Below are positions 11,392-59,073 of a stretch of DNA of 64,000 bases, one piece after another. This stretch comes from an uncultured Candidatus Saccharibacteria bacterium (GTDB taxonomy: Bacteria; Patescibacteriota; Minisyncoccia; Phycocordibacterales; UBA12088). The DNA is taken from positions 205,259-269,258 of the forward strand of contig CAYPKR010000002.1 of assembly GCA_964411375.1 (NCBI GenBank). Direction: 5' to 3'. Both the position numbers and the translations under genes were made by a program. Positions within the stretch are counted from its first letter, which is position 1, and each line of letters starts with the position of its first letter. The notes under the pieces were generated by a model. The model was given only the letters and a program-made list of their open reading frames with translations, did no database searches and was not told the DNA's origin.

Positions 11392-12006
11392 CTAGAGAAA
11401 TGAACTCCGGTGAATATTGAGGTGACCATGCTTTTTCAAATTCCGATAATGCTCTTTGGTGCCATATCCCTTATGCTTTTCAAAACCGTATTCGGGATAT
11501 TTTTCTCCAAGCCTTACCATGTGTCGGTCGCGGGTCACTTTTGCCGCAATCGACGCGAGCGAGATAACCGGCACCAATTCATCGCCCTTAATAATCGTTT
11601 CCTGGTGGGTAAAATGTCGTGGCGCGTACAGTGAACCATCGAGAAGTACGAGAATTGATCCTGGATCGATATCTTCGGTAAGTTCACGAAGATTTCGCGC
11701 CATTGCTGTTTTGACTGCACTTACAATCCCGCGCGAATCGATATGCGAAGCCCCGACTAGGGACACCGCAACATGAATGCTCGGATGTTCCTTCATTTTT
11801 ACAAACCATTCTTCGCGGCGCTCCGAAGATAGTTGTTTGGAATCTCGAATACCCACAAAAAAACCGGCATCAAAATCCGCCGGAATCATAACGGTACCAA
11901 CTGATACCGGACCCGCAATAGGTCCGCGACCTGCTTCATCAATACCAATTATCCAATCGAAATTCTTTGCAATGTCTTGCGTATTCTTCCAAGCGGAGTC
12001 AAGCAT
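11392..12006 (-). CDS. rnhB: Ribonuclease HII
   Basis: IIGIDEAGRGPIAGPVSVG catalytic N-terminus and a KHKGYGTKEHYRNLKKHG C-terminus. I trimmed the start to Met 20 aa before IGIDEAGRG. Confidence 0.85.
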   Translation of the reverse strand: MLDSAWKNTQDIAKNFDWIIGIDEAGRGPIAGPVSVGTVMIPADFDAGFFVGIRDSKQLSSERREEWFVKMKEHPSIHVAVSLVGASHIDSRGIVSAVKTAMARNLRELTEDIDPGSILVLLDGSLYAPRHFTHQETIIKGDELVPVISLASIAAKVTRDRHMVRLGEKYPEYGFEKHKGYGTKEHYRNLKKHGHLNIHRSSFL

Positions 12007-12030
12007 TTCTCTCTGATATACTGGCGGGTA

Positions 12031-15000
12031 ATGAATCGCTTCGTCCATCTTCACACACACAGTCATTATAGCCTTTTGAATGCTTTGCCAAAAATCCCTG
12101 ATTTGGTCGGAGCGGCAAAGGAGGATGGAATGGAAGCACTTGCTCTCACAGACGCCGGCAACCTCTACGGCGCCATCGAATTTTATAAGGAATGCAAAGA
12201 GCAAGGCATTCATCCAATAATCGGAATCGACGCGTATGTTGCGGCGCGTACCCGTCAAGACAAGGAACCAGGTGTCGACAATCGACGCGCGCGACTGATT
12301 CTTCTTGCGAAAAATCTCGAAGGATATCGAAATCTTTTGAAGCTCGTCACTGATTCGGGACTTGAAGGCTTTTATTACAAACCGCGTGTCGATCGCGAAC
12401 TACTTGAAAAATATCAAGAAGGTTTGATCGCGATTCCAACTTCATTTAGTGGCGAGATCGCGAATGCGCTCCGCATGAGTGATTTCGCAAAAGCGAAAGA
12501 AATATATGAATGGTACAAAAAGACATTTGGAGGTGAAAATGTATTTCTCGAAGTAACGCATCATCCAGAAATCGATGGACATGAAAGTCTCCAAGAAAAA
12601 ATAATTGCATTTGCTAAAGAGAATGGAGCAGAGATCGTTGCCGCACACGATGTGTACTATTTGAAACCTGAAGACCGACGTGCGAGAGAGACGATGGTAA
12701 AAATCCAATCGGGCGGCACGCTCGCCGAAGAAGGTCAGAGCGGTTTTGATGATGCCGAAGAAGATTTTTCATTCATCGATCAGGAAAAAGCGGCAAAATT
12801 ATTTTCAAAAACACCCGAAGCACTCGAGAATACGTTGAAAATCGCATCGATGTGCACGCTTGAACTGCCGCTCGGCAAATGGGCGTTCCCTATTCCACAA
12901 ATTGAAAGCGGCAGAACGCCGGACGAAGAACTTCGCTTCCTTGCCTATGAAGGAATCAAAACGCGTGGACTCACTCCGACAACCGAAATAAAAGAGCGAC
13001 TCGAACACGAGCTCGGTATCATCAAACAAAAAGGATATGCAAGTTATTTTATTGTGGTCGCCGATCTCTTACGCTTTGCACACGAACACGACATATATAC
13101 GAACATTCGAGGTTCGGTCGCCGGCTCACTGGTGACGTATTTAACAGGTGTTACCAAGGTAAATCCGCTTGAATATAAAATTCCGTTCGAGCGATTTTTG
13201 AATCCCGAGCGCCCCACTGCTCCGGACATCGACATGGACTTCGCTGACAACCGTCGCGATGAAGTTATTGAATATGCCAAAAATAAATACGGCGCAGACA
13301 AAGTGTCCCAGATCGGTACATTTGGAACCATGATGGCGAGAGCGGCGGTGCGCGATGTCGCACGCGCACTCGGACATCCATATGCCGTTGGAGACCGGAT
13401 CGCAAAACTCATTCCAATTGGTTCGCAAGGATTTCCAATGACCCTTACTCATGCGCTTGAAATAGAGCCGGAACTTTTGAAACTCTATAAAGGCGACAAG
13501 GACGCGAAGGAAGTAATCGAACTGTCGAAAAAAATTGAAGGATGCGCGCGGCATGTGGGAGTTCATGCAGCGGGTGTTGTCATTTCACCGACGCCTTTGA
13601 CTGATTACACACCGCTTCAACTCGATCCAAAAGGCGGTAAGATCATCACGCAGTACGACATGTACTCAATTGATGAAAATAATGCAGGACTTCTTAAGTT
13701 CGACTTCCTGGGGATCAAAAATCTTTCGATTCTTGCCGATTCGGTGAAGCGGGTACAAAAAATCCGCAACATTGATATTGATATCGAAAAAATTCCCCTC
13801 GATGATCCAAAAACATTTGAAATTCTCTCGCAGGGAGAAACGATGGGTTTGTTTCAGTTGAATGGCTCCGGCATGACACGGTTTTTGAAGGAACTAAAAC
13901 CAACCACTATCCACGACATCAACGCGATGGTTGCGCTCTATCGTCCAGGACCTTTGGAATCCATTCCGCAATATATTGAGCGCAAGCACACACCGTCTCT
14001 TATTACCTATCTCGATCCGCGTCTCAAAAATATTCTTGATCAATCGTACGGAGTTATCACCTACCAAGACGACGTGCTTATGGTCGCGGTTGAGATCGGC
14101 GGATATTCCTGGCTTGAAGTCGACAAACTTCGCAAAGCCATGGGAAAGAAAATTCCAGCAGAAATGGAAGCGCAAAAAGAGAAGTTGATCAAAGGATTTA
14201 TTGAGCATGGAAAATTAACCAAAGAAAAAGCGGAGCGAATGTGGAAACTCATCGAGCCGTTTGCCGCGTATGGATTCAACAAAGCGCATGCCGCAAGCTA
14301 CGGTCGTGTTGCGTATCAAACGGCGTACATGAAGGCAAATTTCCCCGTTGAATACATGGCATGTGTTCTGACTGCCGACTCCGGCGATGTTGAGAAAGTC
14401 TCTGAAATCATCACCGAAGTAAAGCGCATGCATATTCAAGTTCTGCCGCCAGATGTAAACGAAAGTTACGGCGTATTTTCGGTCGTTCCTGAGGAATCAA
14501 AAATTCGCTTCGGATTATACTCAATCAAAAACTTTGGCGAAGGAATTGCAGATGTGATTATTGAAGAGCGAAAAAATAATGGGCCATATGAGTCGCTCGC
14601 AGACTTTTTGACACGCATTCAGGACAAAAACCTCAATAAAAAATCACTCGAAGCACTCATTATGGCGGGAGCACTAGACCAGTTTGGCGAGCGCGGATCA
14701 ATGATGGCGAATATTGAAAATCTTCAGCTCTTCAATAAAGAAGCATCGTCAAACGGACATCAGGATTCCTTGTTTGGCGGACTGTCTGGTGGCATTTCTG
14801 AACTTCGCCTTGCGCCGGCAGATCCCGCAACGCAGGCACAAAAATTGCAATGGGAGAAAGAACTTCTTGGTCTCTATATTTCAGGACACCCACTTGATAA
14901 CTACAAAGAAAAGTTAGCGAATCGAGGCAAAACAATTACCGATATAAAACGAACAACCTACGAAGGAGTAGAAACGGTCGTTGGCGGCATTATTGAAGAT

Positions 15001-15210
15001 TTGCGAGTCGTTCTCACCAAAAAGGGCGATAAGATGGCATTCGCAAAAGTCGCTGATATGTCGGGGTCAATCGAAGTGGTCTTTTTCCCAAAGTTATATG
15101 CGGAAAAATCGACAATGGCTGTTCCCGAGGCGTGCATTGCAGTCAAAGGAAAATTTTCTATGCGAAATGGCGAACCATCAATCGTCGCTGATGCAGTAAA
15201 AGCGCTCTAA
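12031..15210 (+). CDS. dnaE: DNA polymerase III alpha subunit
   Basis: A PHP domain (FVHLHTHSHYSLL), the polymerase core and a C-terminal OB fold. I trimmed to MNRFVHLH; it is divergent from rnhB. Confidence 0.9.
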   Translation: MNRFVHLHTHSHYSLLNALPKIPDLVGAAKEDGMEALALTDAGNLYGAIEFYKECKEQGIHPIIGIDAYVAARTRQDKEPGVDNRRARLILLAKNLEGYRNLLKLVTDSGLEGFYYKPRVDRELLEKYQEGLIAIPTSFSGEIANALRMSDFAKAKEIYEWYKKTFGGENVFLEVTHHPEIDGHESLQEKIIAFAKENGAEIVAAHDVYYLKPEDRRARETMVKIQSGGTLAEEGQSGFDDAEEDFSFIDQEKAAKLFSKTPEALENTLKIASMCTLELPLGKWAFPIPQIESGRTPDEELRFLAYEGIKTRGLTPTTEIKERLEHELGIIKQKGYASYFIVVADLLRFAHEHDIYTNIRGSVAGSLVTYLTGVTKVNPLEYKIPFERFLNPERPTAPDIDMDFADNRRDEVIEYAKNKYGADKVSQIGTFGTMMARAAVRDVARALGHPYAVGDRIAKLIPIGSQGFPMTLTHALEIEPELLKLYKGDKDAKEVIELSKKIEGCARHVGVHAAGVVISPTPLTDYTPLQLDPKGGKIITQYDMYSIDENNAGLLKFDFLGIKNLSILADSVKRVQKIRNIDIDIEKIPLDDPKTFEILSQGETMGLFQLNGSGMTRFLKELKPTTIHDINAMVALYRPGPLESIPQYIERKHTPSLITYLDPRLKNILDQSYGVITYQDDVLMVAVEIGGYSWLEVDKLRKAMGKKIPAEMEAQKEKLIKGFIEHGKLTKEKAERMWKLIEPFAAYGFNKAHAASYGRVAYQTAYMKANFPVEYMACVLTADSGDVEKVSEIITEVKRMHIQVLPPDVNESYGVFSVVPEESKIRFGLYSIKNFGEGIADVIIEERKNNGPYESLADFLTRIQDKNLNKKSLEALIMAGALDQFGERGSMMANIENLQLFNKEASSNGHQDSLFGGLSGGISELRLAPADPATQAQKLQWEKELLGLYISGHPLDNYKEKLANRGKTITDIKRTTYEGVETVVGGIIEDLRVVLTKKGDKMAFAKVADMSGSIEVVFFPKLYAEKSTMAVPEACIAVKGKFSMRNGEPSIVADAVKAL

Positions 15211-15281
15211 GCAGGTCCGGTTTCTTTTTTGCAAAAAGAATGAGCGGGGTTTCCCCCGCTCCAGCCAGCCATGATACGAAA

Positions 15282-15578
15282 CTATTCAGACCAATAGGTC
15301 TCTTTGAGATCCCCATCCTTCCAGATATCTCCTGCTTGGCAGCAGTTACGGAAACTCTGGAAAGACTCGCCGGGGATCCAGACCGTGACAGTGGTCTCGA
15401 ATTGGGTTTGAGGGCGCTCAAGTTCTACCTGGCGCGTAGTAGTTTCTTCAGGAAGAAACTTGCCTCCGTGAAGAATCGCGAGGTGAAGCCACGTAGCCAA
15501 CTTCTGAGGATCCCTGAAGGCTTTCGTGGCAGGCATGTCTTTAGGAATCGTGATCGTCCTTGGCTCTACGCTTTCCAT
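15282..15578 (-). CDS. Hypothetical protein (98 aa)
   Basis: Its composition is balanced, unlike the overlapping + ORF, but I found no motif or good RBS. Confidence 0.25.
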   Translation of the reverse strand: MESVEPRTITIPKDMPATKAFRDPQKLATWLHLAILHGGKFLPEETTTRQVELERPQTQFETTVTVWIPGESFQSFRNCCQAGDIWKDGDLKETYWSE

Positions 15579-15626
15579 CGTAACCTCCGGTGGTTCGAGA
15601 GCGATTTAACATTTTTATTTCTTGGT

Positions 15627-15655
15627 TGTCAACCAATCAAAATTTGAGTAATTTC
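15627..15655 (+). promoter_or_regulatory. Candidate sigma70 promoter for the thrS leader (TTGTCA-17-TAATTT)
   Basis: A -35 TTGTCA at 15627-15632, a 17-nt spacer and a -10 TAATTT at 15650-15655, about 40 nt upstream of the leader ATG. Confidence 0.4.
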
Positions 15656-15693
15656 ATTTTGACAAAAAGAAACCCTCGGCATACTCTGTCTCT

Positions 15694-15729
15694 ATGAATC
15701 GAACGACGACTACAACGACCACTACCTAA
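15694..15729 (+). CDS. Thr-rich leader peptide MNRTTTTTTTT (attenuator leader upstream of thrS)
   Basis: The ORF is ATG AAT CGA followed by 8 consecutive Thr codons (ACG ACG ACT ACA ACG ACC ACT ACC) and TAA. It lies 90 nt upstream of the thrS ATG. Confidence 0.55.
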   Translation: MNRTTTTTTTT

Positions 15730-15790
15730 CCTCCCGGAGGCTCGTTGTGTTTCAAAAGAACGAAGCCTCCCCAAGCGGAGGATTTTTTAA
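15730..15790 (+). promoter_or_regulatory. Attenuator hairpins: antiterminator (GGAGGCUCGUU/AACGAaGCCUCC) alternating with a terminator (CCUCC-ccaagc-GGAGG plus U6)
   Basis: Region 1 (ACAACGAcC, within the Thr codons) can pair with region 2 (GGcUCGUUGU). Regions 2:3 form a stem of ~11 bp. Regions 3:4 form a 5-bp GC stem followed by UUUUUU at 15783-15788. A second -10, TATAAT at 15803-15808, lies directly upstream of the thrS ATG. Confidence 0.5.
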
Positions 15791-15820
15791 TAGAAAATCG
15801 CGTATAATATTGTCACCCTT

Positions 15821-17563
15821 ATGAATCTCGAACCAGCCAGACATTCCCTCGCCCATTTGCTCGCGGCAGCCGTGAAGCAGAAATTTCCGCACGCAAAGGC
15901 GACGATTGGTCCTGCAATCGATAATGGTTTTTATTACGACTTTGATTTCTCCGGCGGCGCATCTCCAAGCGAATCCGATTTGAAGGCACTTGAAGCCATG
16001 ATGCGAAATCTCCTGCCATCGTGGACTGAATTTTCTCACAAAGAAGTTTCGGCAGACGAAGCGCGCGAATTCTTTAAAGGAAATGAATACAAAACCGAGC
16101 TCATCAACGATCTCGAAAAAGAAGGTGCGACAATCACCTTCTACACCTGCGGTGGTTTTACTGATCTATGCCGTGGCGGACATTCTGAACATCCCGCAAA
16201 AGAAATTCCATCTGATTCATTCACCCTCGACCGCATCGCCGGCGCATATTGGCGTGGTGACGAAACAAAGCCAATGCTTACGCGTATTTATGGTTTAGCG
16301 TTTGAATCGAAAGAAGCGCTCGACGAGTATGTCGCAAAGCGCGAGGAAGCAAAAAAGCGTGATCATCGAAAACTAGCAAAGGAACAAGATCTGTTGGTTT
16401 TTTCCGATCTGGTAGGAGCCGGAATGCCCCTCTGGACGCCGCGCGGCAATATTCTTAGAAACCAAGTTATTTCCTATTCGCGTGAATTAAACACCGAACT
16501 TGGATTTGGTGAAGTGCATACGCCAAACATCAATAAAGGAGAACTCTTCAAAATTTCTGGTCACTACGACAAGTACAAAGAAGACATGCTGTCCGTTCGT
16601 TCCCAGTACGTGGAAGACGAAATGTTTATGAAGCCAATGAACTGCCCGCAACACACGCAGATCTATGCATCTCGTCCAAGAAGTTATCGCGACCTTCCGA
16701 TCCGCTACTCCGATTTTGCAAACCTCTATCGCGATGAACGGCCAGGAGAACTCTCTGGCCTTACGCGCCTCCGTATGTTTGCGCAAGATGACGGTCACAT
16801 TTTCTGTCGCGAAGATCAGATCGCCGATGAACTCCTGAAAGTACTTGATGTGATTAAACGCGCGCTTCAGGTCTATCAGATTGGATATTGGATTCGACTC
16901 TCACTTCGCGATTCAAAGAAAAAGGAAAAATATCTTGGAAATGATGCTGACTGGGAGCGATCAGAGCAAGAACTCCGCGACATTCTGGAAAAGAGCGGCG
17001 CAACATTTAAAGAAGTTGAGGGCGAAGCGGCATTTTACGGACCAAAACTCGATATCATGGCAGTCGATGCGCTTGGTCGCGAATGGCAAATTTCAACGAT
17101 TCAAGTTGATCGCAACATTCCTGCAAGATTCAAACTCGAATATGTCGCTGATGATGGTTCGAAGAAAACACCAGTTATGATTCACCGCGCCTTGATCGGC
17201 TCTCCGGATCGCTTCCTTGGCGTGTTGATCGAACATTACGCCGGTGCGTTTCCACTGTGGCTCTCACCAGTTCAAGTGAAAATTCTTCCGATTTCGGATA
17301 AGCAAAATGAATATGCCGAAAAAGTGTTTGGAATGTTGAAAGACGCAGGAATTCGCGCAGAACTCGATGATTCAAACGAAACCTTAGGCAAGAAAATCCG
17401 AAACGCAACACTTGAAAAAATTCCGTATACTCTAGTGATTGGTGACAAAGAAATCGAGTCAAATACGGTAACGGTTGAAAGTCGCGATAATGGAAAACTT
17501 GGTGCGCTTTCACTTGAAGACGCACTCACTCGATTCAAGAGTGAGATTGAGGAGAAGAAATAA
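15821..17563 (+). CDS. thrS: Threonyl-tRNA synthetase (short form lacking the N-terminal TGS domain)
   Basis: Class II motifs and the zinc site. I recognise the sequence as ThrRS (FRLEYVADDG, IHRALIGS), with an anticodon-binding C-terminus. Confidence 0.9.
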   Translation: MNLEPARHSLAHLLAAAVKQKFPHAKATIGPAIDNGFYYDFDFSGGASPSESDLKALEAMMRNLLPSWTEFSHKEVSADEAREFFKGNEYKTELINDLEKEGATITFYTCGGFTDLCRGGHSEHPAKEIPSDSFTLDRIAGAYWRGDETKPMLTRIYGLAFESKEALDEYVAKREEAKKRDHRKLAKEQDLLVFSDLVGAGMPLWTPRGNILRNQVISYSRELNTELGFGEVHTPNINKGELFKISGHYDKYKEDMLSVRSQYVEDEMFMKPMNCPQHTQIYASRPRSYRDLPIRYSDFANLYRDERPGELSGLTRLRMFAQDDGHIFCREDQIADELLKVLDVIKRALQVYQIGYWIRLSLRDSKKKEKYLGNDADWERSEQELRDILEKSGATFKEVEGEAAFYGPKLDIMAVDALGREWQISTIQVDRNIPARFKLEYVADDGSKKTPVMIHRALIGSPDRFLGVLIEHYAGAFPLWLSPVQVKILPISDKQNEYAEKVFGMLKDAGIRAELDDSNETLGKKIRNATLEKIPYTLVIGDKEIESNTVTVESRDNGKLGALSLEDALTRFKSEIEEKK

Positions 17564-17579
17564 TAGTAGAAAAGAATTT

Positions 17580-17607
17580 GCCGGATTTCCCTTTCGGGAA
17601 GTCCGGC
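17580..17607. terminator. Bidirectional terminator GCCGGATTTCCCtttcGGGAAGTCCGGC
   Basis: A GC hairpin followed by TTCTACTTTTAT, sitting between thrS and a minus-strand lipoprotein gene. Confidence 0.5.
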
Positions 17608-17616
17608 ATTCTACTT

Positions 17617-31579: not shown

Positions 31580-32008
31580 TTACTTCGATTGATGTTCTAA
31601 GTATGCCATAGCGTCAGTCAAAACCGTTCGATCTTCTGGAAAGGTAATTTGGGTTTTTGCCGATTCAAACGGCAACCAAAGTGCATTCTTGACCTCACTT
31701 GCTTGGAGCGTGAGTGGTGGATCGTTTTCAATTCTTCCGAGAAAATATCCGACGAATTTGTGGATAACTCCATTTTTACGGGTTAGATCGTATTCCGTTT
31801 CAAAGATTTTTTCAGTGTCGACCGTAATGTCGGTAATGCCGACTTCTTCCATCAGTTCTCGGAGCGCCGTTTCTACATTAGTTTCACTTCCCTCCGGATG
31901 ACCTTTGGGAAAAGTGAAATGACCAGCATGATGTTCGATAAGAAAAAATTCGTACTGCCCTTCGATTAAACGGTACGGGAGTATTCCAAAACTATGTTCA
32001 ACCTCCAT
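31580..32008 (-). CDS. NUDIX hydrolase
   Basis: Nudix box GHPEGSETNVETALRELMEEVGI. Its ATG shares its A with the CCA end of tRNA-Thr. Confidence 0.8.
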   Translation of the reverse strand: MEVEHSFGILPYRLIEGQYEFFLIEHHAGHFTFPKGHPEGSETNVETALRELMEEVGITDITVDTEKIFETEYDLTRKNGVIHKFVGYFLGRIENDPPLTLQASEVKNALWLPFESAKTQITFPEDRTVLTDAMAYLEHQSK

Positions 32009-32083
32009 GGAGCCGGAAGTCGGGCTTGAACCGACGACCTACGGTTTACAAAACCGTTGCTCTACCAACTGAGCTATTCCGGC
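32008..32083 (-). tRNA. tRNA-Thr (anticodon UGU), with CCA encoded
   Basis: Acceptor GCCGGAA/UUCCGGC, D arm GCUC-AGUUGGU-AGAGC, anticodon arm ACGGU-UUUGUAA-ACCGU, T arm GUCGG-UUCAAGC-CCGAC, discriminator U, then CCA. Confidence 0.85.
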
Positions 32084-53846: not shown

Positions 53847-56375
53847 TTACGGACAGAGGTCGTCCGCATCCCCATTTGGTCCGACGTTTCCCGGACCGAG
53901 ATTCAGTGTTGGAGCGGTAGCTGCGGGATTTACATTTTGAGTTGCGGGTACGGAACATCCCTCTGCTCCAACAGCGGCGTCAGAATTACCATTTAAGTCA
54001 ATTCCTTCCGGACAACGAGTAGGTTCGCGACGCGGATTAAATTCAAGATATCCAATACGGAGTTTGTCTGATGCGGTAGTAAATACATTTCCCCATATTT
54101 TGGTACGTACTGCATTCGCATGATTTGCTCCAGGAGGGACTTCGTCAGGAAGGCAATCTCCGAGAGAGAACGTACAGTCTCCCGATCCCGCCCAAAATCC
54201 TTGAATACTGCCTTGAAATACGTTGCTCACGAAGAAGTTGTCCGTGTCGAAACTAAAGGCTCCCACATTTTCAAAACGATTATTGAAAAACACGTTCCGC
54301 TGCCCATGTCGAACACCGGTACGATTTTCAGTACCTGCGACAACATTATTTTCGATAACGTTCTCAGTGGATTTCAAGTAGAATCCGTATTGCCGCTTGT
54401 CAGATGAATCGACGTAATTTTTTTCAATCAGCGACCGAGAAATTGATTCTCGCTGCTTGTTTACGAGTCCGAGATAGACATTGATGCCTCCTGATGAAGT
54501 CTGCGGATTGGTGACTCCGCCCCTAAAGAAATTGTGATCAATGCGATGATAGTACGGATTCGAAGTGCCATCCGCGATGTTGATCTGAATATCTTCCTTA
54601 GTATCGCTGGTGCCTGCGTCAAGAATATTTCGATCAATGCGTATATTTCGAGCGTCACTTGCGGTATCGATTATTTTCTCGCCCGGAGCAGAGAGGAAAT
54701 TATTTCCCGTAACACGAACATTGTTTCCATTCACCTGTAGTGTAACTCCAACAAATGTAAATCCTTTGATGACAACGTAATCTCCATTGATGGTGAGCGT
54801 GCCTCCGCTAAATGTCCCTCCTGGAACAAATACCAGCGGATTTGCTGCGGTACCGCTTTGGTTGATCACTCGAGTAGCAGGAGAAAGTGTTTGAGCTCCA
54901 GTCATCGAGTAACATATTTTTGCGGCATTCGCTTTAACGATTCCATACCATGTCGGCGGCGTAAATACGCCTCCAGTCCATTCAGATCCTCCGCCAGTGC
55001 CGCCTGTCGTTCCGGCCGTTGTTCCGCCGACTGTACCACCAACCGTTCCCCCAGTGGTTGCGCCGCTGGTACCACCGCCACCGAAGAAAATATCACTACC
55101 GATTGGATTTCGAATTGCTTGAATTTGCCATCCATTGAATATGCACATAGCGTCGCGGCAGCCGCACTTCCATGCGCCGCCAGAAAAAGTACATGAGTAC
55201 GCCGCAAAAAAAGTAAACACATTTGCTGGGCGCAAATCAGTATTGTTAATACGCGCCGACGCGCCCATCAACAGCCAATTTCCTCCCGAGTCCGGAGCAG
55301 AAGTTCCGGTAAAAGTTATCGGCACCCATGCGGCACCATTCCATCTGAAGCCAGTTTTGTACACATACTTTTGATCGCTTGCGTCATCGCTGTTGACTGA
55401 AAACGTTGCATTCCCGACTGAGTCGCAATTAAAGCGCAGTAACAATTCATGAGTAGTGTTGAATATATTGAAAGCGGCACCGTATCCTGCGGGCGGAACA
55501 ACCGAACTCGTATACCTTTCATTACAGGTAAGCGGCGGGGCGCCGACAGTGGCAAACGTTGCAGTCGTTCCGCCAACCGTTCCTGTTGTACCGACCGTAG
55601 TTCCCGTCGTTACTGTTCCTCCAGTTGTTGTAGTCGTTGTGCTTGCTTGCAGTGCAGTTGCGATTGCAAGTGCGATTTTTTTTGCACCTTGCTCGTTGGT
55701 ATGGAGCCGATCAGCAAAATCCGGATCGGTTGCGCTAGGCATAGTGCCTGGGAACACTTGATCTAATCGCACAAGAATATCGTATTTGGAAGTATCGCTT
55801 AGGATGAGCGTATTGAGCGTTCTGCGCTTCAAATCAATTGCATCCGCTTCTGATTGCGGCGGATTGCTGAACGGATAGAAGGGATGAATGGTGAAAGCGA
55901 CCACCGTAAACCCGTCGGCATGCGCCATCGCCCACAGCGTTTTAAGATCAGTGTATGTTTCCTCCGCGGTACGAGCGGGACCTCCCACTCCGCTTCCTTG
56001 AATGTCGTTGATTCCTCCATAGATGATGTAGTACGCCTTCTTATCTGCTGCTGGCTTATGCGGACGCGCTTCGGTTGGATATTCGGTGAGCATTTGCTTC
56101 ACCTGTTCGCCGGCTGCAGCAATGTTGAAGATGCTTGCGGAAGAATACCAGGTAATATATTGACTGATATAATTCACCCAATCGCCTGGCCTTCGAGGAT
56201 CTGTCGGCAAACCAACAGATCCATTTGAAAGGCTATCTCCTTCAATGACTACAATATCCGCTCTGCCTCCGGGCGCTGTTTGCGCATGTAAATGAATAGA
56301 TACGCCAATGAAAAATACCGCGATGAAGAGAAGGGTTACTCGAGGCAGTATGGTACGTATGTTGTATGTCGACAT
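53847..56375 (-). CDS. Secreted multidomain protein: SGNH/GDSL esterase N-domain, shared 6-Cys module, C-terminal beta-helix
   Basis: A signal peptide and VVIEGDSLSNGS (the GDSL block). The shared module reads CNERY...YGAAFNIF...WKCGCRDAMC. It abuts the upstream gene within ~5 nt and is probably cotranscribed with it. Confidence 0.7.
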   Translation of the reverse strand: MSTYNIRTILPRVTLLFIAVFFIGVSIHLHAQTAPGGRADIVVIEGDSLSNGSVGLPTDPRRPGDWVNYISQYITWYSSASIFNIAAAGEQVKQMLTEYPTEARPHKPAADKKAYYIIYGGINDIQGSGVGGPARTAEETYTDLKTLWAMAHADGFTVVAFTIHPFYPFSNPPQSEADAIDLKRRTLNTLILSDTSKYDILVRLDQVFPGTMPSATDPDFADRLHTNEQGAKKIALAIATALQASTTTTTTGGTVTTGTTVGTTGTVGGTTATFATVGAPPLTCNERYTSSVVPPAGYGAAFNIFNTTHELLLRFNCDSVGNATFSVNSDDASDQKYVYKTGFRWNGAAWVPITFTGTSAPDSGGNWLLMGASARINNTDLRPANVFTFFAAYSCTFSGGAWKCGCRDAMCIFNGWQIQAIRNPIGSDIFFGGGGTSGATTGGTVGGTVGGTTAGTTGGTGGGSEWTGGVFTPPTWYGIVKANAAKICYSMTGAQTLSPATRVINQSGTAANPLVFVPGGTFSGGTLTINGDYVVIKGFTFVGVTLQVNGNNVRVTGNNFLSAPGEKIIDTASDARNIRIDRNILDAGTSDTKEDIQINIADGTSNPYYHRIDHNFFRGGVTNPQTSSGGINVYLGLVNKQRESISRSLIEKNYVDSSDKRQYGFYLKSTENVIENNVVAGTENRTGVRHGQRNVFFNNRFENVGAFSFDTDNFFVSNVFQGSIQGFWAGSGDCTFSLGDCLPDEVPPGANHANAVRTKIWGNVFTTASDKLRIGYLEFNPRREPTRCPEGIDLNGNSDAAVGAEGCSVPATQNVNPAATAPTLNLGPGNVGPNGDADDLCP

Positions 56376-56379
56376 ATGT

Positions 56380-59073
56380 TTAATCGGCGCAAGCAGTGAG
56401 GCTGATCCCCAGTGACGATGCGGCAAAATTTTTCGATGCAATCCACCAGCCCAATGTTTTATCCCACGGCTTTCTTGTGTGATCGCTCATGGAAGTCAGT
56501 GTTCCCCACACCGCAACCCCTTGAGTAAGGGGACGGAGATGTTGTAATTGATAGTCCCAAAATGTCTGCGAGACATACGGCACCGAATCAATCTCAAACT
56601 GCGGCCAAATGTATGGAATTACTGTCTTTCCGGGACCGAGTGCTTTGTAGGAGTTGATTCGACCAGTCGCCATTGTATTCCATAATTCTGGATTGGATCC
56701 CATATCAAGATCTGCTGCATAGAGCGATGGCTGAAGAAAATCTTGCGAATTGATGAACGCTTGTGCTGCTCCCGATCTGCTGCTAATTTCTCGTGTCATG
56801 AATGGTGCGCCGTAATAGCCAAACTGGGTACGAGTATCTCCTCGCGCGCGCACTGCAGTACGAAGACCATTTATTGCTTGCACGTATTTTGCAGCGTCTG
56901 CATCGCTAAAACCGATTCGATCTGCATCACGCCAAATCTCGATATCGATAGATACATAATCAAGGTTCGCCGCAACAATATTTGCTGCGGTAGCATCAAC
57001 ACGAGCCTGATTATAATTATTATTTCCATCAAGCAATTCCGAAGGATTCACAATATCCAATCCTCCAGACAGACCGCAATTCTTTAAGTTCGGCTCACCG
57101 GTAAATGCAATAGTGTCATACATTTTCCATGTTCCCGGAGGAGGCGCCGTTGTTCCTCCCGTTGCAGTGGTGCCAGTCACCGTTCCGCCAGTTACTACCA
57201 CGCCGGTAGTACCGCCAATTGCAGAGCGCATCGCTTGAATTTGCCAGAAGTGAACGCCACAAAAAGAATCGCGGCAGCCGCATTTCCATTCAGAATTTGA
57301 AAATGTACAAGTGTATGCGACAAAGTATGAAAATCGATCTTGCGGAAGTAGATCACTGTACGGAATAGTCACGTGTGCTCCCATCAAAAGCCAATCGGGT
57401 GACCCCGGCGCAGCAGTTCCTTCAAACGTGAATGGCACCCATGAACCGCCGTTCCACCTGAACCCAGTTTTGGAAACATATTTCTGGGTGGCGGTGTCTG
57501 GAGTATTTACTGAGAGTGTGAGATTGCCATTTGAATCACAAACCGTGCGAATTAATAATTCACGATATCCGCTAAATACATTGAATGCTGCACCGTAATT
57601 ATTTGGAATGCCAGCAGCGTTGCTATAGCGCTCGGTACAACCTCCGAAAAAAGGAAGCGTTGTTCCCGAACCTCCAACCCCTACTCCAACTGTGGTTCCC
57701 CCCGTCGTCCCCACTCCCGTCCCCGTCGTAACAGTACCCGCAGTACCAACGGTTCCATGTCCATCACCTCTCCACAGGGTTTTGTATACCGCGATAGGAT
57801 CTTGCCCTGATTCGTTTGCCGGCCATGCGGAATAAATACTGCCGTCTCCTTGGTCGAAGTAATCTTCGTGATCAAGAATATCTTGGTTCGCATTAAAGAA
57901 TGCGTAGGTGAAGCGGATGACGTCCGCCGGATGTGTGGAAGCGGCGGCGCCTTCGCGGCGCGGCGCCCATTCGGGAAATACCATTCGAACTCCTTGCGCT
58001 CTCGCGAATGCCACAATTTCGTTGAATCCCCAGAATCCTGCATTGCCTGCAAGGATTTGGTTCCAGTTGTTTCCTGGCGCTGTTGCTGATTCCCCCTGCA
58101 CTCGCACCATCGAGCTGTCATGCCACGATGCGCCGACAAAATCGATTTGTTTCCCGATGGGGCCAGGAGGAAGCACCGTGATTCCGTTGATGATTCGAGT
58201 ACCAGGGCTCCAACTGGCAACATTGTTTGGCCAGAGTTGTTCGTGGCGAATGGTGCTGCCCCCACCACGACGATCGGAATTGATGAACTGGAGTTGTGGA
58301 CGGAATGCGAAATAGTAATTTGGATATTGTCCGCGCTGATATTTGTATCCTTCTTTAAATACGCGGATCCATCTCGCCCATGCATATGGAAAATCCTGAT
58401 ACGTGAAATGCTTTCCGGTTGCGTCAGTATATGAGCCTTCAGGAGATTTGCCGTGCGTCTCGAGCGTAAATTCATAGAACCAGTCCATGGTCATTGGAAA
58501 CGCCGGATCGCCGTCGCGCTGATCGAGGTATGCGAACTTTCGTCCGAGGAGAAAGAGGTATTTGTCCGCGTCCCCGTTTTTGATATCCCGATAGATTGTC
58601 GGGTTCGCGTATGTGGAGCCAGTCCATCGATTGCCGAGTGTTGAAGGAATTGGTTCTGCCCAGTCGAGATGAATGATGCGCTTTCGGTGCACGGTTGCGG
58701 GATAGTCGCCCCAAATGTGGCGGAACCATCCTTCGTCCTGGAACACGCCGTGGAAAAGCGGCGGATCCGCGTTCCATGCTGCGGGAGTGCGGTTGAAATC
58801 GCGATCCGTTTCGGCTTCGCTGTCGGCGCCGCCAACATTCGGCCATGTGACGACATCTCCCATTCCTTGGGTCACTGAATCTGGTTCGTGACCCATGAGA
58901 TCGATGTAGTTCTGCATATGATCAGAGCTGCCGTTGATCCAGCTACCGGCATTCCATGGCATGCCGCTTTTGCCGACGTGTCCAGAAAAGACAGCCGCGT
59001 ATACTGGCTTTCCAATGATACCCGCAACAAAGACAAGGATGCCCAAAAGAAGCGGGATGGCGAAGAATTTCAT
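56380..59073 (-). CDS. Secreted multidomain protein: GH-like N-domain (identical to the one in 47024..50623), shared 6-Cys module, C-terminal TIM-barrel-like domain
   Basis: The N-terminal 465 aa are identical to those of the 1199-aa paralog. The shared module reads CTERY...YGAAFNVF...WKCGCRDSFC. Confidence 0.7.
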   Translation of the reverse strand: MKFFAIPLLLGILVFVAGIIGKPVYAAVFSGHVGKSGMPWNAGSWINGSSDHMQNYIDLMGHEPDSVTQGMGDVVTWPNVGGADSEAETDRDFNRTPAAWNADPPLFHGVFQDEGWFRHIWGDYPATVHRKRIIHLDWAEPIPSTLGNRWTGSTYANPTIYRDIKNGDADKYLFLLGRKFAYLDQRDGDPAFPMTMDWFYEFTLETHGKSPEGSYTDATGKHFTYQDFPYAWARWIRVFKEGYKYQRGQYPNYYFAFRPQLQFINSDRRGGGSTIRHEQLWPNNVASWSPGTRIINGITVLPPGPIGKQIDFVGASWHDSSMVRVQGESATAPGNNWNQILAGNAGFWGFNEIVAFARAQGVRMVFPEWAPRREGAAASTHPADVIRFTYAFFNANQDILDHEDYFDQGDGSIYSAWPANESGQDPIAVYKTLWRGDGHGTVGTAGTVTTGTGVGTTGGTTVGVGVGGSGTTLPFFGGCTERYSNAAGIPNNYGAAFNVFSGYRELLIRTVCDSNGNLTLSVNTPDTATQKYVSKTGFRWNGGSWVPFTFEGTAAPGSPDWLLMGAHVTIPYSDLLPQDRFSYFVAYTCTFSNSEWKCGCRDSFCGVHFWQIQAMRSAIGGTTGVVVTGGTVTGTTATGGTTAPPPGTWKMYDTIAFTGEPNLKNCGLSGGLDIVNPSELLDGNNNYNQARVDATAANIVAANLDYVSIDIEIWRDADRIGFSDADAAKYVQAINGLRTAVRARGDTRTQFGYYGAPFMTREISSRSGAAQAFINSQDFLQPSLYAADLDMGSNPELWNTMATGRINSYKALGPGKTVIPYIWPQFEIDSVPYVSQTFWDYQLQHLRPLTQGVAVWGTLTSMSDHTRKPWDKTLGWWIASKNFAASSLGISLTACAD

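What the first reader, a model, noticed from the sequence alone, without database searches (positions are those of the whole stretch)
15627..15820. Thr-codon leader-peptide attenuator in front of thrS (ThrRS), a pheM-like attenuator
A putative promoter (TTGTCA-17-TAATTT) sits 90 nt upstream of thrS. It is followed by a tiny ORF, MNRTTTTTTTT, with 8 consecutive Thr codons (ACG ACG ACT ACA ACG ACC ACT ACC) and then TAA.

The Thr-codon segment (ACAACGAcC) can pair with a downstream segment (GGcUCGUUGU). That downstream segment can instead form an ~11-bp stem with AACGAaGCCUCC. The 3' half of that stem can alternatively form CCUCC-ccaagc-GGAGG followed by UUUUUU.

This is the architecture of ribosome-mediated attenuation (1:2, 2:3, 3:4), as in E. 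coli thrL-thrABC and pheM-pheST. Here it sits in front of the tRNA synthetase gene. E. coli thrS uses translational autoregulation and Bacillus thrS uses a T-box, so a peptide-based Thr attenuator on thrS in this lineage would be an undescribed arrangement.
Basis: partly seen in the sequence, partly recalled or inferred. Interest (0 to 1): 0.8.

Follow-up and report, generated by a model that had tools for sequence, protein, structure and literature searches.

The report
Threonine leader-peptide attenuator upstream of thrS
A tiny upstream gene made almost entirely of threonine codons, followed by a transcription-stop hairpin, most likely lets this ultra-small (CPR/Patescibacteria) bacterium make more threonyl-tRNA synthetase when charged threonine tRNA runs short. 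The mechanism is classical, but it has not been reported in this lineage, and only weakly on this gene.

Summary
Window 15694-15729 encodes MNRTTTTTTTT*, the only run of eight ACN codons in 64 kb (0 in shuffles). A hairpin plus U6 (15766-15788) lies 39 nt before thrS (15821-17563).

Comparative evidence supports a Thr-responsive, ribosome-mediated transcription attenuator. Seven other Patescibacteria thrS loci carry sequence-divergent versions of the same module. Each has TTGACA-like -35, 17 nt, TAnnnT, 6-7 nt and ATG (a leaderless leader ORF). Each then has 4-9 Thr codons, a stop codon, an antiterminator strand that repeats the terminator 3' arm, and a terminator.

Among 157 thrS loci, a short ORF enriched in one amino acid and followed by a terminator occurs only for Thr (5 loci; 0 for the other 19 amino acids).

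Ribosome-masked folding shows the antiterminator forming when the ribosome sits on Thr codons and the terminator forming otherwise.

- The promoter is at 15659-15687, not 15626-15654.
- The 3:4 hairpin is weak (-6.8 kcal/mol). An extra CCUCC (15730-34) pairs with GGAGG (15777-81) to give a -24.4 kcal/mol terminator.
- Leader-peptide attenuators on aaRS genes are already known (pheST, trpS, leuS, hisS paralogue, a weak Streptomyces thrL-thrS).

Close relatives use T-box-like leaders or none. This is a new member of a known kind. No transcript data exist.

The parts
15659..15664 (+). -35 hexamer TTGACA of the leader promoter
   Evidence: TTGACA-N17-TAnnnT-N6/7-ATG occurs once in the window, with 0.02 expected. 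The same spacing is seen in all 8 leader-bearing loci. This is inferred, with no TSS data.
15682..15687 (+). -10 hexamer TACTCT (weak, 3/6 to consensus), 6 nt before the leader ATG. This implies a leaderless leader transcript.
   Evidence: The tool's stricter consensus scan did not call it.
15694..15729 (+). Leader ORF MNRTTTTTTTT* (ATG start, TAA stop)
   Evidence: It is the only short ORF in the window that has a -10 at the right spacing, a terminator after it, and a strongly biased composition.
15703..15726 (+). Run of 8 Thr codons (ACG ACG ACT ACA ACG ACC ACT ACC; all four Thr codons are used)
   Evidence: Unique in the window, 0 in shuffles.
15712..15718 (+). It can pair with 15742-48.
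   Evidence: -4.5 kcal/mol as a bare helix, -10.1 in context. Not used in the MFE structure.
15730..15734 (+). Segment B, CCUCC, immediately after the stop codon. It pairs with GGAGG 15777-81 to close the long terminator hairpin. A ribosome stalled on the last Thr codons covers it.
   Evidence: MFE structures. Long hairpin -24.4 kcal/mol. P(3' arm paired) falls from 0.99 to 0.34-0.40 with the A site on codons 10-11.
15736..15746 (+). Segment C (2), GGAGGCUCGUU. This is the antiterminator 5' strand. Its first five bases repeat the terminator 3' arm.
15759..15770 (+). Segment D (3), AACGAAGCCUCC. It pairs with C (antiterminator, -18.2 kcal/mol). Its last 5 nt are the terminator 5' arm.
   Evidence: Sequestration probability is 1.00, against a mean of 0.40 in 300 shuffles, none of which reached the observed value.
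15777..15781 (+). Segment E (4), GGAGG. This is the terminator 3' arm. It pairs with 15766-70 or with 15730-34.
15783..15788 (+). U6 tract of the intrinsic terminator
15803..15808 (+). TATAAT box 12 nt before the thrS ATG, with no -35 and no TG extension. It may be a residual or basal promoter that bypasses the attenuator.
   Evidence: TATACT or TATAAT sits at the equivalent place in the other leader-bearing loci. Relatives without a leader have TGnTAnnCT there. Its function is unknown.
15821..17563 (+). thrS, threonyl-tRNA synthetase (580 aa, no N-terminal TGS domain). This is the regulated gene.
   Evidence: Pfam. 100% identical to P0001 and about 70-80% to Patescibacteria ThrRS.
17579..17608 (+). 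Terminator after thrS (13-bp stem). thrS is therefore monocistronic downstream of the attenuator.

Best explanation
This is a threonine-specific, ribosome-mediated transcription attenuator controlling thrS in a Patescibacteria (CPR) genome.

Inferred start of the process: transcription starts at or next to the ATG of a leaderless 11-codon ORF (15694-15729), from the promoter TTGACA-17-TACTCT. A ribosome translates the eight Thr codons while RNA polymerase transcribes the next ~60 nt.

Shown in silico:
- Segment C (15736-46) pairs strongly with D (15759-70). This sequesters CCUCC, the 5' arm of the terminator.
- Whether GGAGG (15777-81, just before U6) finds a partner then depends on the ribosome.
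- With enough Thr-tRNA, the ribosome reaches UAA. There it covers B (CCUCC 15730-34) and the GGAGG of C, which frees D's CCUCC to pair with E and form the small terminator. After release, B pairs with E around C:D, giving the long -24.4 kcal/mol terminator. Either way transcription stops at U6.
- With scarce Thr-tRNA, the ribosome lingers on the last Thr codons. It covers B while C:D holds the other CCUCC. E has no partner and polymerase reads through into thrS.

Inferred outcome: low charged tRNA-Thr therefore leads to more ThrRS.

The relatives realise the same logic either with this nested layout (L016, L167, L168, partly L010) or with a textbook 1:2 / 2:3 / 3:4 layout (L001, L171, L095, L010).
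For: 1. The Thr run is unique in the window and not expected by chance.

2. An intrinsic-terminator-like site lies 39 nt before thrS.

3. Helix energies are 2:3 -18.2, 3:4 -6.8 and long hairpin -24.4 kcal/mol. The helices are mutually exclusive.

4. Ribosome-masked folding of the window gives these results. On the full-length leader RNA (through the 3' arm), the probability that the terminator 3' arm is paired is 0.99 for free RNA and for early codons. It is 0.34-0.40 with the A site on Thr codons 10-11 and 0.86 at the stop codon. On transcripts cut before the 3' arm, the 5' arm is sequestered with probability 1.00 on Thr codons and 0.20 at the stop codon.

5. The same module lies upstream of thrS in seven more loci. 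They come from divergent Patescibacteria, with ThrRS 50-70% identical to the window's. Titled records name Paceibacterota and Roizmanbacteria.
- L001: MILTTTTTTR
- L171: MRLTTTTTG
- L167: MTPRVTTTATI
- L168: MRSLTTATTTTS
- L010: MLRVLTTTTTNTTTTRFGR
- L016: MSLLNFVIVTTTTCPR
- L095: MSLLETTTATGI

Only the Thr run is conserved in the peptides. Thr codons differ synonymously between loci.

6. In every locus, the strand that pairs with the terminator 5' arm repeats the terminator 3' arm. Examples are GGAGG/GGAGG, GGGAGG/GGGAGG, GCGUGG/GCGUGGG and GCGGUGG/GCGGGGG. The terminator stems differ in sequence but stay complementary.

7. Specificity control over 157 thrS loci: a short ORF with at least 4 of 6 residues of one amino acid, followed within 110 nt by a hairpin and U-run, is found for Thr in 5 loci. 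It is found for none of the other 19 amino acids on the sense strand.

8. Antiterminator sequestration exceeds dinucleotide shuffles in all 8 loci. The fraction of shuffles reaching the observed value is 0-0.087, and 0 of 300 for the window.

9. All eight leader ORFs start with ATG placed 6-7 nt after a TAnnnT box, 17 nt after a TTGACA-like box. This fits leaderless translation.

10. L167 and L168 have a separate terminator for the upstream gene before the leader promoter. The leader hairpin is therefore not simply the upstream gene's terminator.

11. Relatives place a T-box-like element (GGUGGAACCGCG plus terminator) at the same position. This shows that thrS is under charging-dependent attenuation control in this clade.
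Against: - No RNA-seq, Term-seq or Ribo-seq data exist. Every step is computational.
- The window's -10 (TACTCT) matches the consensus at only 3 of 6 positions. The consensus scan called no + strand promoter.
- The 3:4 hairpin has only 5 bp.
- Equilibrium folding predicts that a ribosome stalled on the first five Thr codons leaves B free, so the long terminator still forms. Relief is predicted only for stalls on roughly the last 2-3 Thr codons.
- A TATAAT box (15803-08) between terminator and thrS could be a bypass promoter.
- The element is patchy. Many relatives at 65-80% ThrRS identity have a T-box-like leader or no leader.
- L167 has a poor U-tract and no clean predicted switch.
- Transcription-translation coupling has not been shown in CPR bacteria.
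Confidence: 0.8

Rival explanations
1. The untranslated or fully translated state is 1:2 (Thr codons 15712-18 with 15742-48) plus 3:4. The starved state is 2:3. Segment B plays no role.
For: All three helices exist. L001, L171 and L095 really do fold this way.
Against: In the window, 1:2 is only -4.5 kcal/mol bare and -10.1 in context, and 3:4 is -6.8. Against these, 2:3 is -18.2. Neither the MFE nor the ensemble uses 1:2. Free RNA forms B:E plus C:D.
Confidence: 0.12
2. The leader ORF and terminator form an independent small transcription unit, encoding a micropeptide or an sRNA. thrS is transcribed from its own proximal promoter (TATAAT 15803-08), so the module does not control thrS.
For: A -10-like box lies between terminator and thrS in all leader-bearing loci. 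Relatives without a leader have an extended -10 at that position.
Against: In leader-bearing loci the proximal box lacks both a -35 and the TG extension. Only the Thr run is conserved in the peptides, which does not fit a functional peptide. The module is found specifically and only upstream of thrS, and only with Thr. The antiterminator design exceeds shuffles and would be pointless in a stand-alone unit.
Confidence: 0.08
3. It is a chance ORF next to an ordinary terminator of the upstream gene, with no regulation.
For: No separate terminator is seen after the upstream ORF in the window. Folding of the whole region 15680-15795 is only modestly better than shuffles (z = -1.98).
Against: The 8-codon Thr run has an expectation of 0. 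The promoter-ATG pattern has an expectation of 0.02. The module recurs in 7 other loci, only for Thr. L167 and L168 carry an extra terminator for the upstream gene.
Confidence: 0.03
4. Sensing is done by tRNA or by protein rather than by the ribosome. Either a degenerate T-box binds uncharged tRNA-Thr, or ThrRS binds an anticodon-arm mimic as in E. coli thrS translational autoregulation.
For: Close relatives have T-box-like leaders at the same place. ThrRS autoregulation is established in E. coli (textbook knowledge).
Against: The window has no T-box match even at E <= 10, and no GGUGGNACCGCG motif. The hairpin loops are not conserved between leader-bearing loci and do not form 7-nt anticodon-like loops. 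The element ends in a terminator, not at a ribosome-binding site.
Confidence: 0.03

Closest known systems
E. coli thrL-thrABC attenuator (Rfam Thr_leader RF00506)
   Same: It has a short leader ORF with a run of Thr codons, alternative antiterminator and terminator hairpins, and an intrinsic terminator. Ribosome stalling on Thr codons relieves termination.
   Different: It regulates threonine biosynthesis, not the synthetase, and also contains Ile codons. It has a 5' UTR with a Shine-Dalgarno sequence. There is no sequence or structure homology: no Rfam match at E <= 10. The window element is apparently leaderless and uses a nested B:4 / 2:3 terminator.
E. coli pheM-pheST attenuator
   Same: A leader peptide rich in the cognate amino acid controls an aminoacyl-tRNA synthetase operon by transcription attenuation (established knowledge; cited in PMC1262725). 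The physiological logic is the same: low charged tRNA leads to more synthetase.
   Different: The amino acid, sequence and lineage all differ. There is no homology.
Actinobacterial aaRS leader peptides: Streptomyces trpS and leuS (PMC1262725), and S. lividans alaL-alaS and 'thrL'-thrS (PMC8079986)
   Same: Leader peptides lie upstream of aaRS genes and are transcribed leaderless. One was reported upstream of thrS.
   Different: The S. lividans thrL peptide (MKRVRPFLETTPGFVPAR) has only two Thr. Its authors found one hairpin and no U-rich tract. The CPR elements have 4-9 Thr codons, and most (not L167) have clear U-tract terminators and antiterminators.
T-box leaders of thrS (Bacillus thrS and thrZ; T-box-like elements in CPR relatives found here)
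   Same: They occupy the same position and give the same output, which is readthrough of a terminator when tRNA-Thr is uncharged. Exchanges between T-box and leader peptide at the same gene are documented for hisS (PMC2965389).
   Different: The sensor is a direct tRNA-RNA interaction, not a translating ribosome. The window has no T-box motif.
His leader peptide upstream of hisS paralogue and hisZ in Bacillus (PMC2965389)
   Same: A leader-peptide attenuator on an aaRS-family gene, found outside Proteobacteria by comparative genomics and replacing a T-box.
   Different: The amino acid and phylum differ. There is no homology.

Membership tests
Classical ribosome-mediated (leader-peptide) transcription attenuator | A short ORF with tandem codons for the amino acid cognate to the regulated gene | tested here: met
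   8 consecutive Thr codons at 15703-15726 upstream of thrS. Relatives carry 4-9 Thr codons.
Classical ribosome-mediated (leader-peptide) transcription attenuator | An intrinsic terminator between the leader ORF and the structural gene | tested here: met
   Hairpin 15766-81 (or the extended 15730-81) followed by A and U6, 39 nt before the thrS ATG.
Classical ribosome-mediated (leader-peptide) transcription attenuator | An antiterminator helix mutually exclusive with the terminator | tested here: met
   C:D at -18.2 kcal/mol uses CCUCC 15766-70. Sequestration probability is 1.00 against 0.40 in shuffles, 0 of 300 reaching it.
Classical ribosome-mediated (leader-peptide) transcription attenuator | Ribosome position decides the fold: a stall on regulatory codons gives the antiterminator, and reaching the stop or no translation gives the terminator | tested here: met
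   In-silico ribosome masking. In the window, relief is predicted only for the last 2-3 Thr codons. This is a thermodynamic model only.
Classical ribosome-mediated (leader-peptide) transcription attenuator | A promoter and translation start for the leader | tested here: inconclusive
   TTGACA-17-TACTCT-6-ATG is unique in the window and its spacing is conserved in 8 loci. The -10 is weak, however, and no TSS data exist.
Classical ribosome-mediated (leader-peptide) transcription attenuator | Conservation of the architecture in relatives | tested here: met
   Seven further loci, Thr-specific. The distribution is patchy.
Classical ribosome-mediated (leader-peptide) transcription attenuator | A short terminated transcript and amino-acid-dependent readthrough in vivo or in vitro | not testable with these tools
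   No transcriptome data or wet-lab assay were available.
Rfam Thr_leader (RF00506) | A match to the covariance model | tested here: not met
   No hit at E <= 10 in 15000-16500. No hit at gathering score in the window.
T-box riboswitch (RF00230) | The conserved T-box sequence (GGUGGNACCGCG) in an antiterminator bulge, plus a specifier | tested here: not met
   No Rfam hit. The motif is absent upstream of the window's thrS but present in 20 other loci.
E. coli-type thrS translational operator | tRNA-Thr anticodon-arm mimics next to the thrS ribosome-binding site that bind ThrRS | tested here: inconclusive
   No conserved 7-nt anticodon-like loop in the folds of the eight leaders. The element ends in a terminator 39 nt before the ATG. 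No dedicated model exists to search with, and binding cannot be tested here.

The most novel reading that the evidence does not exclude
CPR/Patescibacteria import their amino acids and have minimal regulatory repertoires. On this reading, they control thrS by transcription attenuation and have repeatedly swapped the sensor within narrow clades. The alternatives are a leaderless Thr leader peptide, a reduced T-box, or a plain promoter.

The leader-peptide version in the window would use an architecture not formally described. The four segments are two CCUCC/GGAGG repeats. The stalled ribosome acts mainly by occluding the 5' base of a long terminator (B:4) while 2:3 holds the alternative partner. 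This gives termination both with no ribosome and with a ribosome at the stop codon.

If true, it would be the first evidence of functional transcription-translation coupling and leaderless leader-peptide sensing in CPR bacteria. It would also be a clean natural case of de novo attenuator birth and turnover.
Probability: 0.35. Interest if true: 0.6.

Novelty: new member of a known kind. Interest (0 to 1): 0.5.

Why it matters
CPR/Patescibacteria are uncultured, ultra-small, mostly symbiotic bacteria, and almost nothing is known about their gene regulation. A convincing leader-peptide attenuator on thrS would imply several things:
- They couple translation to transcription closely enough for a ribosome to control a terminator.
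- They translate leaderless mini-ORFs.
- They sense tRNA-Thr charging to adjust synthetase supply, which makes sense for cells that cannot make threonine.

The side-by-side occurrence of Thr leader peptides, T-box-like leaders and plain promoters is also useful. It is seen in relatives whose ThrRS is 70-84% identical. This gives a natural series for studying how attenuators are born and replaced.

The mechanism itself is textbook, so the advance is in distribution and evolution, not in principle.

Tried and rejected
1. Rfam. No family matches the window element. T-box hits in relatives are only sub-threshold, so I call those 'T-box-like' on the strength of the core motif.

2. Covariation counting. 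A MAFFT alignment of five leaders (A1) aligned only L001 with L171 convincingly. The stems of the others were not in register. I therefore did not run the count of structure pairs or build a covariance model. Instead I compared helices locus by locus and used shuffles.

3. Equilibrium measure of whether the terminator 3' arm is paired, on full-length leaders. This proved ambiguous, because the arm can also pair with an upstream segment B. I added folding of transcripts truncated before the 3' arm.

4. The window's nearest relative (P0002, 80% ThrRS identity) could not be examined, because no DNA was returned.

5. The gene between dnaE and thrS. The + strand ORF 15240-15647 (135 aa) and the - strand ORF 15282-15578 (98 aa) could not be told apart. 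There are no Pfam hits and no convincing similarity to the small ORFs at that position in relatives.

6. L096 (MLNYLKTTTSFATTTTP*) has a Thr-rich ORF but no U-tract terminator. I did not count it.

7. L149 and L152 (MSPCSSATATTSASTRRL) appeared in the relaxed scan. I regard them as chance.

8. L086 His_leader hits are a bidirectional terminator after thrS.

9. A window-wide scan for other leader ORFs with a terminator found none besides the thrS leader.

10. The most relevant older survey (Lopatovskaya et al. 2010, Mol Biol 44:128) is not held. I cannot exclude that thrS attenuators were predicted there for other phyla.
Full report
**What is in the sequence**

Reading 15400-16100 confirms a 12-codon ORF, ATG AAT CGA ACG ACG ACT ACA ACG ACC ACT ACC TAA, at 15694-15729. 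It is followed by CCUCC-C-GGAGGCUCGUUGUG...AACGAAGCCUCC-CCAAGC-GGAGG-A-UUUUUU. The thrS ATG is at 15821.

The ORF 15821-17563 is a 580-aa class II synthetase with tRNA-synt_2b and HGTP_anticodon domains and a weak tRNA_SAD match. The upstream gene 11977-15210 is dnaE.

Eight consecutive ACN codons occur once in the 64-kb window and never in 100 dinucleotide shuffles. Other runs of 5 or more ACN codons lie inside long ORFs, for example a Thr/Gly-rich linker in an 864-aa ORF.

The consensus scan finds a terminator-like site at 15766-15781 followed by ATTTTTT. No Rfam family matches the region, not even Thr_leader or T-box at E <= 10.

**Helices**

Energies:

| Helix | Segments | kcal/mol |
|---|---|---|
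| 2:3 | 15736-46 with 15759-70 | -18.2 |
| 3:4 | 15766-70 with 15777-81 | -6.8 |

CCUCC at 15730-34, directly after the stop codon, is a second copy of the terminator 5' arm. It pairs with GGAGG 15777-81 around the 2:3 helix. That nested hairpin (-24.4 kcal/mol) is the MFE structure of the free RNA. It ends right at A+U6, so it is itself a strong terminator.

**Ribosome-masked folding**

I masked everything up to 13 nt from the first A-site base.

On the full-length leader RNA (through the terminator 3' arm), the probability that the terminator 3' arm is paired is:
- 0.99 for free RNA and for A sites on codons 1-8;
- 0.80 on codon 9;
- 0.34-0.40 on Thr codons 10-11;
- 0.86 at UAA.

On transcripts cut before the 3' arm, the 5' arm is sequestered with probability 1.00 on Thr codons. 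This falls to 0.20 when the ribosome is at the stop.

The predicted logic follows. Transcription terminates without translation, through the long hairpin. It also terminates when translation reaches the stop, through the small 3:4 hairpin and then the long hairpin after release. It reads through when the ribosome is held on the last Thr codons. In that state B is covered, 2:3 holds the other CCUCC, and GGAGG has no partner. This is a thermodynamic model. Kinetics and pausing are not modelled.

**Lineage and relatives**

The best genome matches to the ThrRS are Patescibacteria (Paceibacterota, Kaiserbacteria and others), at 70% identity or less. Metagenome and protein searches give the same picture.

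Scanning the 400-450 nt upstream of thrS in these loci found Thr-run leader ORFs with terminators in:
- L001 (MILTTTTTTR), L010 (MLRVLTTTTTNTTTTRFGR) and L016, a Roizmanbacteria record (MSLLNFVIVTTTTCPR);
- L095 (MSLLETTTATGI);
- three relatives of L001 with 79-84% ThrRS identity, reached through encoding-contig look-ups: L167 (MTPRVTTTATI), L168 (MRSLTTATTTTS) and L171 (MRLTTTTTG).

Only the Thr run is conserved in the peptides. Thr codons differ synonymously between L001 and L171.

Terminator stems differ in sequence (CCUCC, CCCCCGC, GCCCCG, CUCCCCG, CCUCCC, CCCACGC, CAUCGC) but stay complementary. In each locus, the strand predicted to pair with the terminator 5' arm repeats the terminator 3' arm.

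The stop codon lies 0-14 nt before that strand, and inside it in L010. In most loci a terminating ribosome would therefore reach it.

The loci fold in two layouts:
- L001, L171, L095 and L010 fold as textbook 1:2 + 3:4 versus 2:3.
- L016, L167 and L168 share the window's nested layout.
- L167 is the weakest case, with a poor U-tract and no clean switch.

**Controls**

- Specificity. Among 157 thrS loci, a short ORF with at least 4 of 6 residues of one amino acid, followed within 110 nt by a hairpin and U-run, occurs on the sense strand only for Thr (5 loci). It occurs for none of the other 19 amino acids.
- Shuffling. I shuffled the sequence between the ribosome front edge and the terminator 5' arm. 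The fraction of shuffles that sequester the arm as well as the native sequence is 0-0.087 across the eight loci. It is 0 of 300 for the window, L010 and (nearly) L016.
- Window-wide scan. A scan for ATG-ORFs of 5-35 codons followed by a terminator shows no other ORF with comparable amino-acid bias.

**Promoter**

All eight leader ORFs begin with ATG placed 6-7 nt after a TAnnnT box, which sits 17 nt after a TTGACA-like box.

In the window this is TTGACA 15659-64 / TACTCT 15682-87. The pattern TTGACA-N17-TAnnnT-N6-7-ATG occurs once in the window, with 0.02 expected. This implies a leaderless leader transcript, as reported for actinobacterial leader peptides (PMC8079986).

However, it is not the conserved arrangement, and it lies about 170-195 nt, not 90 nt, before thrS.

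The window's -10 is weak (3 of 6), and the tool's consensus scan called no + strand promoter. The promoter assignment is therefore inferred.

**Alternatives at the same position**

The window's closest relatives with available DNA (L161, and L163/L164, 74% ThrRS identity), together with L170 (79% to L001), carry AAnnnnGGUGGAACC(G/A)CG followed by a terminator. This is the T-box core.

That motif lies upstream of thrS in 20 of the loci fetched. Rfam T-box scores are only sub-threshold: L005 at 36.1 bits, E = 9e-5, and L161 at 26.5 bits, E = 0.014, against a gathering score of 93.

Other relatives have no leader and an extended -10 (TGnTAnnCT) 9-11 nt before the ATG.

So thrS in this clade is controlled in one of three ways, and the sensor has been exchanged between close relatives. 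The same has been described for hisS (PMC2965389).

In L167 and L168, a separate terminator for the upstream gene precedes the leader promoter. This rules out the idea that the leader hairpin is merely the upstream gene's terminator.

**Caveats**

- There are no transcript data.
- A TATAAT (15803-08; TATACT in the L001 group) lies between the terminator and thrS in all leader-bearing loci. It could be a basal bypass promoter, although it lacks a -35 and the TG extension seen in relatives without a leader.
- The model predicts relief only for stalls on the last two or three Thr codons.
- The gene immediately upstream is not resolved: + strand 15240-15647 or - strand 15282-15578.

**Comparison with what is known**

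The mechanism is that of E. coli thrL and pheM-pheST. Leader-peptide attenuators on aaRS genes have been predicted or reported for:
- Streptomyces trpS and leuS (PMC1262725);
- a Bacillus hisS paralogue (PMC2965389);
- S. lividans alaS and thrS. The S. lividans thrL has only two Thr and no clear terminator (PMC8079986).

Full-text searches found nothing on leader peptides, attenuation or T-boxes in CPR/Patescibacteria. One relevant survey (Lopatovskaya et al. 2010) could not be read.

The element is not a member of Rfam Thr_leader or T-box.

**Verdict**

- I file it as a new member of a known kind: a Thr leader-peptide attenuator on thrS, first seen in CPR bacteria, leaderless and with a nested terminator layout.
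- Confidence that it is a functional Thr-responsive attenuator is about 0.8.
- Interest is 0.5.

Noticed in passing
L161:700-760; L163:720-790; L164; L170:720-790; L005:595-739; L087; 20 loci in all: T-box-like leaders (AAnnnnGGUGGAACC[G/A]CG plus terminator) lie upstream of thrS in many Patescibacteria relatives. They score far below the Rfam T-box gathering score (36 and 26 bits against 93). They appear to be reduced or divergent T-boxes in a phylum for which I found no T-box literature.
   Followed up: partly
L163:~580-610 and L170:~620-650: Hairpins CCGG-CUACCAA-CCGG (L163) and UUCCAG-CUACCAA-CUGGAA (L170) sit upstream of the T-box core. They show ACC, a Thr codon, in a conserved 7-nt terminal loop, with compensatory stem changes. 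They resemble the ultrashort Stem I of actinobacterial ileS T-boxes.
   Followed up: no
window 15803-15808; equivalent positions in L001, L010, L167, L168, L171: A TATAAT or TATACT box with no -35 and no TG extension is kept between the attenuator terminator and the thrS ATG in leader-bearing loci. Relatives without a leader have an extended -10 (TGnTAnnCT) 9-11 nt before the ATG. It may be a relic or basal promoter, and it hints that the leader module was inserted upstream of an older promoter.
   Followed up: partly
window 32008-32083 (-): The only tRNA gene in the 64-kb window is tRNA-Thr(UGU). It lies 14 kb from thrS. This is probably coincidence.
   Followed up: no
window 53847-56441 (-): An 864-aa ORF carries long Thr/Gly-rich linkers (ASTTTTTTGGTVTTGTT...). 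It accounts for the other ACN-codon runs in the window. No function was assigned.
   Followed up: no
L003:~1365-1475: The stretch just upstream of thrS in this 67%-identical relative is masked with N exactly where a leader would lie. It is followed by the terminator CGGCTCCCCTCGGGGAGCCGTTTTG, 20 nt before thrS. A leader or T-box may be hidden there.
   Followed up: no
L096:~1008-1061: A Thr-rich short ORF, MLNYLKTTTSFATTTTP*, lies behind a TGTGTATAAT promoter upstream of thrS. It has no U-tract terminator. Instead there is a hairpin followed by an A-run. It may be a variant or a decayed leader.
   Followed up: no
window 15240-15647 (+) / 15282-15578 (-): Overlapping ORFs lie on opposite strands between dnaE and the leader promoter. 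Neither has Pfam hits or clear similarity to the small ORFs at this position in relatives. A strong hairpin at 15242-15261 could terminate either dnaE or the minus-strand ORF.
   Followed up: partly
window 15821-17563 and relatives: The ThrRS of this clade is about 580 aa and lacks the N-terminal TGS domain found in E. coli ThrRS. Its tRNA_SAD editing-domain match is only weak.
   Followed up: no
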